A DNA stretch of 64,000 bases from Escherichia coli (GTDB taxonomy: Bacteria; Pseudomonadota; Gammaproteobacteria; Enterobacterales; Enterobacteriaceae), in NCBI RefSeq assembly GCF_003334815.1, contig NZ_QOWO01000003.1; one strand, written 5' to 3'. Below the pieces are notes generated by a model. The model was not told the DNA's origin, searched no databases, and saw only the letters and a program-made list of their open reading frames with translations. A program made the translations under genes and the position numbers. Of the stretch, positions 62,083-62,852 are shown piece after piece; positions within the stretch are counted from its first letter, which is position 1, and every line of letters begins with the position of its first letter.

Positions 62083-62204
62083 ATGCGATAGTGATCACAG
62101 GACATTTGATAACTTGATGAAAGTACAAGTTTTTATCCTTTTTACTGGAGCTTCTAATTAATCGGGTTAAGATAGTTATCTTGAAGAGGTCGTGGGGAAG
62201 CGTT

Positions 62205-62852
62205 ATGTATCTTGATACCAGCAACGTACAGAGCCTGAAGGAAAAGCTGCTGTTATGCGCGGTTAATGAATTTGCCGAATATGGTTATGAAGGGGCCAGG
62301 GTCGATAATATTGTTAAGGCTGCGGGGTGTAGTAAACAGACGGTTTATCATCACTTTGGTAATAAAGAAAATTTATTTATTGAAGTACTGGAATATACCT
62401 GGAACGATATTCGACAAAAAGAAAAGGCCCTTGATTTCTCAGATTTTCCGCCACAAAAAGCCATTGAGAAAATTATTGATTTTACATGGGATTATTATAT
62501 TGCTAATCCCTGGTTTTTAAAAATTGTGCATAGTGAAAATCAAAGTAAAGGTGTGCATTATGCAAAATCACAGCGTCTCTTAGAAATTAACCATGCGCAC
62601 TTGCAGTTAATGGAATCCTTATTGGATGAAGGGAAGAAACACAATATTTTTAAGCCAGATATCGACCCATTGCAGGTGAATATTAATATTGCTGCGCTTG
62701 GCGGATATTATTTGATCAACCAGCATACGCTTGGCCTGGTTTATCATATCAGTATGGTTTCCCCCCAGGCACTGGAAGCCAGACGTAAGGTCATCAAAGA
62801 GACAATCCTTAGCTGGCTTTTGGTTGACCCTTCATCTACCGCGCACGAATAA
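62205..62852 (+). CDS. TetR-family transcriptional regulator
   Basis: 215-aa product from the ATG at 62205 (GGGGAAG SD); N-terminal HTH ([30 protein letters not shown]); AT-rich. Confidence 0.85.

What the first reader, a model, noticed from the sequence alone, without database searches (positions are those of the whole stretch)
62181..62852. Right island junction: TetR gene 3' end overlaps ytfB by 17 bp; K-12 ytfA may be a remnant of this regulator
The TetR ORF (plus) and ytfB (minus) converge and overlap by 17 bp (62836-62852), so the accessory operon abuts core DNA with no spacer. In K-12 a short plus-strand gene (ytfA, recalled as a regulator fragment) occupies the equivalent position upstream of ytfB. 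That would fit this operon being ancestral and K-12 carrying a deletion or replacement that left a truncated regulator, rather than this strain having gained an island.
Basis: inference. Interest (0 to 1): 0.5.

Follow-up and report, generated by a model that had tools for sequence, protein, structure and literature searches.

The report
K-12 ytfA is a truncated TetR gene

Summary
A 215-aa TetR/AcrR gene (real start ATG 62205, stop 62850-62852) converges on ytfB (62836-63474, minus strand) and overlaps it by 17 bp (62836-62852).

The interpretation also holds. MG1655 ytfA (b4205, annotated as a pseudogene) aligns from window 62450/62451 to 62852. Its translation is 100% identical to TetR residues 83-215, which is the whole C-terminal domain without the DNA-binding helix-turn-helix.

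K-12 also keeps a 102-bp relic of the neighbouring SDR gene. Both deletion junctions lie at short direct repeats. A variant with yjfZ, an MFS transporter and the full operon looks like the intermediate.

The intact regulator is in 3139 of 5426 complete E. coli genomes. It sits at the same site in E. albertii, E. whittamii and Salmonella (same 17-bp overlap), in a Citrobacter MAG, and in Lelliottia and Entomohabitans (with a spacer instead). So the right junction is old and shows no mobile-element scar. The overlap arose because the regulator's own stop codon and spacer were lost.

The core claim is already in RefSeq annotation and one paper, so interest is low. The locus does carry several old structural alleles, and yjfZ is in only 47% of E. 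coli genomes.

The parts
62205..62852 (+). TetR/AcrR-family regulator gene, 215 aa. It has an N-terminal helix-turn-helix (HTH, residues 19-61) and a TetR_C_29 domain (residues 83-201). The mechanical ORF starts at TTG 62181.
   Evidence: the conserved MY[LIF]D start in homologues.
62836..63474 (-). ytfB (cell division protein YtfB, OapA/LysM-like), a core gene.
62836..62852 (.). 17-bp convergent overlap. The last five TetR codons plus its stop are read from the antisense of the ytfB 3' end.
   Evidence: The same overlap is seen in MG1655, Salmonella and a Citrobacter MAG.
62451..62852 (+). Segment homologous to the K-12 ytfA pseudogene b4205 (TetR residues 83-215, the complete C-terminal domain).
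62447..62454 (.). TCCGCCAC, the right copy of the 8-bp direct repeat at K-12 deletion junction 2.
61906..61913 (.). TCCGCCAC, the left copy of the 8-bp direct repeat, inside the SDR gene near codon 28.
61802..61903 (-). Part of the SDR gene (about codons 30-63) that survives in K-12-type genomes as a 102-bp relic. The relic is 81% identical to the intact gene.
61201..61992 (-). SDR ('3-ketoacyl-ACP reductase') gene, the first gene of the divergently transcribed operon.
61993..62204 (.). Divergent intergenic control region. It is entirely absent from K-12-type genomes.
62061..62082 (.). Palindrome ATCAACCA-N6-TGGTTGAT, the candidate TetR operator. Its core is invariant in 10 sequences from 6 genera.
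53011..62449 (.). 9,439-bp segment missing from K-12. K-12 has 1,082 bp there instead: yjfZ, its upstream flank and the SDR relic.
53069..55937 (-). TRAP transporter genes dctPQM (GC about 43%). This cassette stands where Salmonella, other genera and 1693 E. coli genomes carry an MFS transporter gene.
62745..62745 (.). Position where IS609 (tnpA + tnpB, 1,747 bp) interrupts the remnant in O157:H7, O111 and 1745 genomes in total. There is no insertion in this window.

Best explanation
The region holds an intact TetR/AcrR-family local regulator. It is transcribed divergently from an eight-gene carboxylate-catabolism operon: a transporter, an FAD-dependent oxidoreductase, a CoA-transferase, an enoyl-CoA hydratase, a TIM-barrel isomerase-like protein and an SDR. 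This regulator-plus-operon unit is an old resident of the slot between rplI and ytfB.

The 17-bp overlap exists because, in the Escherichia/Salmonella/Citrobacter lineage, the regulator's own stop codon and the short spacer were lost. These are still present in Lelliottia and Entomohabitans. The reading frame therefore runs on into the antisense of the last ytfB codons until it meets a TAA.

K-12 ytfA is the 3' 402 bp of this gene. The K-12 arrangement most likely arose from a variant carrying yjfZ, an MFS transporter and the full operon. Two deletions between short direct repeats produced it. One ran from just downstream of the MFS gene to SDR codon ~63 (repeat CAGCAGGGA). The other ran from SDR codon ~30 to TetR codon 82 (repeat TCCGCCAC). 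Together they removed both promoters, the operator and the helix-turn-helix.

Shown: the homology, the breakpoints, the relic, the distribution and the synteny. Inferred: the slippage or illegitimate-recombination mechanism, the order of events, and the repressor function with its operator.
For: Homology and direction of change:
- MG1655 ytfA is 100% identical in amino acids to TetR residues 83-215. It is annotated as a pseudogene and as a TetR/AcrR gene missing its N-terminus.
- A 102-bp SDR relic lies next to it in the correct order and orientation.

Junctions and intermediate:
- TCCGCCAC occurs at both parental sites of junction 2 in the window and in ST131.
- CAGCAGGGA occurs at both parental sites of junction 1 in GMF054.
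- An intermediate arrangement exists: rplI-yjfZ-MFS-operon-TetR-ytfB. K-12 sequence is collinear with it to about 100 bp short of the MFS stop codon.

Distribution in 5426 complete E. coli genomes:
- 3139 are intact across the breakpoint.
- Of these, 1446 are TRAP type and 1693 are MFS type.
- About 2235-2274 are truncated exactly at window 62450.

Synteny outside E. coli:
- The full locus is next to ytfB in E. albertii, E. whittamii, SCPM-O-B-8794 and E69.
- It is also there in Salmonella with the identical 17-bp overlap and in a Citrobacter MAG.
- Lelliottia RWM.1 and Entomohabitans have it with an 11-15-bp spacer and a 209-aa regulator.
- Leminorella has the operon elsewhere, with a 208-aa regulator.

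Regulator:
- Pfam TetR_N and TetR_C_29 both match.
- The gene is arranged divergently from the operon, with a palindrome that is invariant across 6 genera.
Against: The SDR relic is only 81% identical to intact E. coli SDR genes, while the adjacent TetR remnant is 98-99% identical. Simple in-situ deletion does not explain this. It needs either an old origin plus later recombination of the remnant with intact alleles, or a foreign origin for the left part.

No single extant allele sampled carries both repeat pairs exactly. GMF054 lacks the SDR copy of TCCGCCAC.

Escherichia sp. E1V33 has the same two junctions but no yjfZ, so the order of events is not unique.

Repression, operator binding and the inducing ligand were not tested. 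No NCBIfam equivalog reaches its cut-off, and no paper on the operon was found.
Confidence: 0.85

Rival explanations
1. The K-12 arrangement is a replacement, not a pair of in-situ deletions. Incoming foreign DNA carrying yjfZ and a piece of a diverged SDR gene recombined with homology on the rplI side and illegitimately, at a GCCAC microhomology, inside the resident TetR gene (homology-facilitated illegitimate recombination).
For: The SDR relic is 19% diverged from every intact E. coli allele and at best 85% identical to any sampled allele (E. whittamii), while DNA immediately to its right is 98-99% E. coli-like. yjfZ is an orphan with no NCBIfam family and is reported to be restricted to E. 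coli and Shigella (PMC11057252).
Against: A genome type with yjfZ plus the complete operon exists and is collinear with K-12 past yjfZ into the MFS-downstream region. Both junctions have repeats in resident alleles. The relic itself varies by 5-8% among K-type E. coli and by 15% from the E1V33 copy, as expected for an old, neutrally drifting piece rather than a recent import.
Confidence: 0.12
2. The operon with its regulator is a recently acquired island in this strain, K-12 shows the ancestral empty site, and the similarity of ytfA is incidental.
For: The TetR gene and the TRAP genes are AT-rich (41-44% GC). Most sampled Citrobacter, Enterobacter and Lelliottia lack the operon between rplI and ytfB.
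Against: A truncated gene and a 102-bp internal gene relic cannot precede the full genes. The locus is in 58% of E. coli genomes and is syntenic in five other genera. There is no integrase, tRNA, IS element or direct repeat at the right junction. The enzyme genes have core-like GC of 50-56%.
Confidence: 0.02
3. The K-12 ytfA remnant is not dead. It is kept by selection, either as a ligand-binding-domain-only protein (the 108-aa GTG ORF) or as cis sequence needed for ytfB 3'-end formation.
For: The remnant spans the complete Pfam TetR_C_29 model, positions 1-119 of 119. It has no stop or frameshift and is 100% identical in amino acids to the intact protein in K-12. The E1V33 remnant shows dN/dS of 0.05-0.08, like intact orthologues, with private changes of 4 non-synonymous to 6 synonymous. 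Meanwhile the neighbouring SDR relic has drifted 15-19%. CRISPRi of ytfA changed dapE and bssS expression (bioRxiv 10.64898/2025.12.20.695731).
Against: IS609 splits the remnant in 1745 genomes, about 77% of K-type genomes, and an O111 strain has lost its 3' part. Its promoter and native start are deleted. Recombination with intact alleles through the continuous ytfB-side homology explains the conservation. The CRISPRi effect is confounded, because dCas9 bound there can also block convergent ytfB transcription (inference). The substitution counts are very small.
Confidence: 0.08

Closest known systems
E. coli K-12 ytfA (b4205) pseudogene, as annotated in NC_000913.3 and by PGAP
   Same: It is the same locus. 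Window 62451-62852 is the orthologue, 100% identical in amino acids, with the same 17-bp overlap with ytfB.
   Different: The window carries the full-length 215-aa gene with its helix-turn-helix, promoter region and target operon. K-12 has only residues 83-215. The old 108-aa 'YtfA' ORF is residues 108-215 read from an internal GTG.
Local TetR-family repressors of catabolic operons that sense acyl-CoA or pathway intermediates (Bacillus FadR, KstR2, RutR, AcuR)
   Same: It shares the TetR_N + TetR_C architecture. It is transcribed divergently from a CoA-transferase / enoyl-CoA hydratase / dehydrogenase operon, with a palindromic candidate operator in the shared intergenic region. Some Salmonella records label the orthologue 'KstR2'.
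   Different: No equivalog model reaches its cut-off; the best score is 47 bits against a cut-off of 250. The closest solved structure is an uncharacterised TetR protein, 3npi, at E = 2e-16. The ligand, the operator binding and the pathway substrate are unknown.
Deletion between short direct repeats (replication slippage or illegitimate recombination) producing gene remnants in bacterial chromosomes
   Same: Both K-12 junctions coincide with 8-9-bp repeats present at the two parental sites. Truncated genes are left on either side.
   Different: Two deletions left a 102-bp island of SDR sequence between them. The allele is old and shared with another Escherichia species. The mechanism is inferred from sequence only.

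Membership tests
TetR/AcrR family transcriptional regulator | N-terminal helix-turn-helix DNA-binding domain (Pfam TetR_N, PF00440) | tested here: met
   Residues 19-61, E = 3e-14. The K-12 ytfA remnant lacks it.
TetR/AcrR family transcriptional regulator | C-terminal all-helical ligand-binding and dimerisation domain | tested here: met
   TetR_C_29 (PF17938), residues 83-201, full model 1-119, E = 4e-30. Full-length match to PDB 3npi.
TetR/AcrR family transcriptional regulator | Binds a palindromic operator near its own gene or target operon and is released by a small-molecule ligand | not testable with these tools
   Only indirect support: the divergent arrangement and a palindrome invariant across 6 genera at 62061-62082.
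Named TetR equivalogs (FadR-Bacillus, RutR, BetI, AcrR, AcuR, KstR2-like) | Whole-protein score above the curated NCBIfam cut-off | tested here: not met
   The best scores are 47 bits against a cut-off of 250 and 46 bits against 200. All matches are mainly to the HTH region.
Pseudogene or gene remnant (K-12 ytfA) | Homologous to only part of an intact gene, with the start codon, promoter and an essential domain missing | tested here: met
   It covers residues 83-215 only. The sequence upstream is the SDR relic followed by the yjfZ flank.
Pseudogene or gene remnant (K-12 ytfA) | Signs of neutral decay (frameshifts, stops, dN/dS near 1) | tested here: not met
   K-12 shows 0 non-synonymous and 3 synonymous differences from the window. 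E1V33 has dN/dS of 0.05-0.08. However, IS609 disrupts the remnant in 1745 genomes.
Recently acquired genomic island | Mobile-element scars at the junction (integrase, tRNA, IS element, flanking direct repeats) | tested here: not met
   None at the TetR/ytfB junction or in the 59 bp between the rplI terminator and the TRAP gene.
Recently acquired genomic island | Narrow, patchy strain distribution with an intact empty site in relatives | tested here: not met
   3139 of 5426 E. coli genomes carry it. It is syntenic in Escherichia species, Salmonella, a Citrobacter MAG, Lelliottia RWM.1 and Entomohabitans. K-12 is not an empty site but a truncated one.
Recently acquired genomic island | Atypical base composition | tested here: inconclusive
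   The TRAP genes (43-44% GC) and the TetR gene (about 41%) are AT-rich, whereas the enzyme genes (50-56%) are core-like.

The most novel reading that the evidence does not exclude
The rplI-ytfB slot may carry a long-lived polymorphism that is partly shared between species. At least four structural alleles coexist: TRAP-operon, MFS-operon, yjfZ-MFS-operon, and the deleted yjfZ + relic + ytfA allele. The deletion allele would be older than the diversification of E. coli. The evidence is the 15-19% drift of its relic and its presence in Escherichia sp. E1V33. It would have been kept at about 40% frequency by balancing or niche-dependent selection on the catabolic operon. Meanwhile its TetR remnant is continually refreshed by recombination, and 1.5-kb TetR-ytfB haplotypes move between Escherichia species.
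Probability: 0.3. Interest if true: 0.45.

Novelty: already known. Interest (0 to 1): 0.22.

Why it matters
It gives a K-12 "y-gene" a clear origin. ytfA is the ligand-binding half of a regulator whose DNA-binding half, operator and eight-gene target operon were deleted. Screens that treat ytfA as a transcription factor should be read with that in mind.

E. coli B derivatives, many commensal and pathogenic lineages, and Salmonella retain an uncharacterised CoA-dependent carboxylate pathway that K-12 cannot show. They are the strains in which to study it.

yjfZ has been proposed as an E. coli/Shigella signature qPCR target, but it is missing from about half of complete E. coli genomes.

Tried and rejected
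- Donor of the SDR relic. I searched ECOR29, GMF054, ST131, E69, E. albertii, E. whittamii, SCPM-8794, Salmonella, a Citrobacter MAG, Entomohabitans, Lelliottia and Leminorella. The best match is 85% (E. whittamii), so no donor was identified.
- Relaxed selection on the remnant. I tested dN/dS and private-substitution counts. The numbers are too small to separate selection from recombination.
- Terminators at the convergent junction. The consensus scan found none convincing.
- Specific function of the regulator and operon. I tried NCBIfam, PDB sequence search and literature search. Only generic family names came back, and no paper on the locus was found.
- 'Recent island gain'. I rejected this reading on the evidence.
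- Coordinate check. I first assumed a single offset between the window and strain 300709. A 6-bp length difference in the CoA-transferase gene showed that the offset changes left of about 58 kb, so I corrected the coordinates.
- Phylogroup-resolved distribution. This could not be computed because the tools list at most 60 records per search. Only named example strains are given.

Full report
**Observation**

The six-frame ORF list shows a plus-strand ORF at 62181-62852 and a minus-strand ORF at 62836-63510. The window is 100% identical over 61000-64000 to E. coli strain 300709. There RefSeq annotates a TetR/AcrR regulator at window 62205-62852 (215 aa) and ytfB at 62836-63474. The TetR stop codon TAA is at 62850-62852 and the ytfB stop codon at 62836-62838, so the two genes converge and share 17 bp. 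Pfam finds TetR_N at residues 19-61 and TetR_C_29 at residues 83-201.

**K-12 ytfA**

In MG1655 the order is rplI, yjfZ, ytfA (b4205, flagged as a pseudogene, 4427694-4428095), then ytfB (4428079-4428717). The overlap with ytfB is again 17 bp.
- BLAST aligns MG1655 to the window from 62450 onward at 98.3% identity. The ytfA translation is 100% identical to TetR residues 83-215.
- PGAP describes the same feature in a K-12-type genome as [quoted passage not shown].
- The remnant covers the whole TetR_C_29 model (positions 1-119 of 119) and has no helix-turn-helix.
- The historical 108-aa "YtfA" (PMC3614548) is the ORF from an internal GTG, equivalent to TetR residue 108.

The core statement is already contained in current annotation. 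It is also implicit in PMC6790063, which lists ytfA as a TetR-family regulator present in some E. coli strains and in all E. albertii and E. fergusonii examined.

**What K-12 lost, and how**

Between the two shared flanks the window has 9,439 bp (53011-62449), while K-12 has 1,082 bp. The K-12 segment is not only yjfZ. Its last 102 bp match SDR-gene codons ~30-63 (window 61802-61903) at 81% identity. That piece has the right order and orientation and abuts the TetR remnant.

Junction 2 joins SDR codon ~30 to TetR codon 82. It coincides with an 8-bp direct repeat, TCCGCCAC, at 61906-61913 and 62447-62454.

A third arrangement exists in some genomes, for example GMF054: rplI, yjfZ, an MFS transporter, the full enzyme set, the full TetR gene, then ytfB. 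K-12 is collinear with this arrangement through yjfZ and its upstream flank, to about 100 bp short of the MFS stop codon. At that point GMF054 has CAGCAGGGA, which recurs at SDR codon ~63. This is junction 1.

The simplest history is that the yjfZ-MFS-operon allele suffered two deletions between short direct repeats. These removed the transporter, five enzyme genes, most of the SDR gene, both promoters, the candidate operator and the helix-turn-helix. The slippage mechanism is an inference from the repeats.

**Distribution in E. coli**

| Feature (out of 5,426 complete genomes) | Genomes |
|---|---|
| Intact across the breakpoint | 3139 |
| TRAP transporter genes | 1446 |
| MFS gene | 1693 |
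| yjfZ segment | 2539 |
| Truncated exactly at 62450 (K-type) | about 2235-2274 |
| yjfZ together with the full operon (by subtraction) | about 270-300 |
| IS609 at position 62745 | 1745, about three quarters of K-type |

The TRAP and MFS counts sum to the 3139 intact genomes.

Named examples cut across lineages. The phylogroup labels below come from general knowledge, not from a tool.
- K-12 (phylogroup A) is deleted.
- An E. coli B derivative (phylogroup A) is intact with TRAP.
- O157:H7 and O111 are deleted and carry IS609.
- O25:H4 ST131 (phylogroup B2) is intact with MFS and has a hipBA-like module next to rplI.

**Outgroups**

One representative genome per species was scanned with YtfB, and loci were then typed by tblastn.
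- E. albertii, E. whittamii (MFS type), SCPM-O-B-8794 (TRAP type) and E69 all have the full regulator running into ytfB.
- Escherichia sp. E1V33 has the K-type junctions, relic and remnant. It lacks yjfZ but retains yjfZ's upstream flank.
- Most Citrobacter, Enterobacter, Lelliottia and Leclercia have rplI and ytfB separated by about 1.1 kb or by almost nothing. Where the 1.1 kb was read (a Citrobacter and an Enterobacter locus) it holds one EamA/DMT-type ORF.
- Salmonella enterica has rplI, EamA, MFS, the enzymes, a 215-aa TetR and ytfB, with the identical 17-bp overlap. A Citrobacter MAG has the same.
- Lelliottia sp. RWM.1 and Entomohabitans have the same insert with a 209-aa regulator and an 11-15-bp spacer before ytfB.
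- Leminorella has the operon in an unrelated context with a 208-aa regulator.

Regulators that do not overlap ytfB end two or three residues after the conserved ...SWLL motif. The Escherichia and Salmonella proteins carry an extra tail ([18 protein letters not shown]) whose last codons are simply the antisense of ytfB's ...FIRAR-stop. The overlap is therefore an old compaction. The native stop codon and spacer were lost, and the frame now ends at the first stop inside ytfB. It is not the scar of a recent insertion.

**Age, and the one awkward fact**

The SDR relic differs by 19% from intact E. coli alleles. It differs by 5-8% among K-type E. coli and by 15% between K-12 and E1V33. The adjacent TetR remnant, by contrast, is 98-99% identical to intact E. 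coli alleles. In the remnant, K-12 differs from the window by 0 non-synonymous and 3 synonymous changes. E1V33 shows dN/dS of 0.05-0.08, like intact orthologues, and its private changes are 4 non-synonymous to 6 synonymous.

I read this as an old deletion allele. The relic, flanked by allele-specific DNA, drifts freely. The remnant is contiguous with ytfB, so it keeps recombining with intact alleles. Two alternatives remain as rivals with lower probability. One is a foreign origin for the left part. The other is selection on the remnant. The frequent IS609 disruption argues against the selection reading.

**Function**

The regulator has no equivalog in NCBIfam. Its closest solved structure is an uncharacterised TetR protein. 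It is transcribed divergently from the operon. The 212-bp intergenic region contains ATCAACCA-N6-TGGTTGAT at 62061-62082. The core of this palindrome is invariant in ten sequences from six genera, while the surrounding DNA varies. This is the candidate operator.

The operon's makeup is a carboxylate-type transporter (DctP TRAP or an ACS-family MFS), a CoA-transferase, an enoyl-CoA hydratase, an SDR, a succinate-dehydrogenase-like flavoprotein and a TIM-barrel protein. That suggests a CoA-dependent, beta-oxidation-like route for an organic acid. Both the substrate and the inducer are unknown, and I found no paper on the locus.

**Verdict**

The core point is already known from annotation. The added detail is routine comparative genomics of modest interest:
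- two repeat-bounded deletions
- an SDR relic
- an intermediate allele
- an overlap conserved back to Salmonella
- several old alleles at one locus

Noticed in passing
L001:4919-6000 (K-12-type yjfZ segment); absent from the window between 53010 and 53069: The yjfZ segment is found in only 2539 of 5426 complete E. coli genomes. This window, E. coli B derivatives and ST131 lack it. PMC11057252 nevertheless proposes YjfZ as a conserved E. coli/Shigella signature target for water-quality qPCR.
   Followed up: partly
window 62000-63600; L004:13201-14469; L061:9900-11400: About 7% of E. coli genomes (367 records in the 80-90% identity band, e.g. ECOR29) carry a TetR-ytfB haplotype only 72-79% identical to the window (dS about 1.4), inside an otherwise 99% identical operon. 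In this haplotype a 212-aa TetR abuts ytfB with no overlap. It is 97-98% identical to an E. fergusonii-labelled genome whose flanks are only 90-96% identical, which suggests exchange of about 1.5 kb between species.
   Followed up: partly
L062:10001-11287: A third TetR allele class (211 aa, about 81% amino-acid identity, in a cluster shared by E. coli and E. albertii records) has a 12-bp spacer before ytfB and a 366-bp intergenic region. E. coli therefore holds overlapping, abutting and spaced versions of this junction.
   Followed up: partly
window 53069-55951: The TRAP dctPQM genes (GC about 43%) stand where Salmonella, Lelliottia, Entomohabitans, Leminorella, E. whittamii and 1693 E. coli genomes have an ACS-family MFS transporter gene. 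The swap boundary lies at the 3' end of the FAD-oxidoreductase gene. The TRAP version therefore looks derived.
   Followed up: partly
window 52958-53069; L060:1668-3429; L054:1428-2363: The slot just after the rplI terminator holds different cargo in different genomes: an EamA/DMT gene (Salmonella, Citrobacter, Enterobacter), yjfZ (K-12, GMF054), an HTH + frameshifted HipA toxin pair (ST131 strain CU568-3), or nothing (E. whittamii and this window).
   Followed up: no
window 62745 (insertion point); L003:6297-8043: IS609 (tnpA + tnpB, 1,747 bp) sits at the same point of the ytfA remnant in 1745 genomes, including O157:H7. In O111 strain FWSEC0005 the DNA beyond the IS is replaced by IS fragments and the espL2/nleB/nleE effector genes.
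   Followed up: partly
window 58012-59553: The CoA-transferase gene in the window encodes 513 aa, against 515 aa in strain 300709, a 6-bp length difference. The window is therefore not strictly that strain outside 61000-64000.
   Followed up: no
L008:2887-3560 (Escherichia sp. E1V33): A different Escherichia species carries the same two deletion junctions, the relic and the TetR remnant as K-12. It lacks yjfZ while keeping yjfZ's upstream flank, which implies a later loss of yjfZ or transfer of the deletion allele between species.
   Followed up: partly
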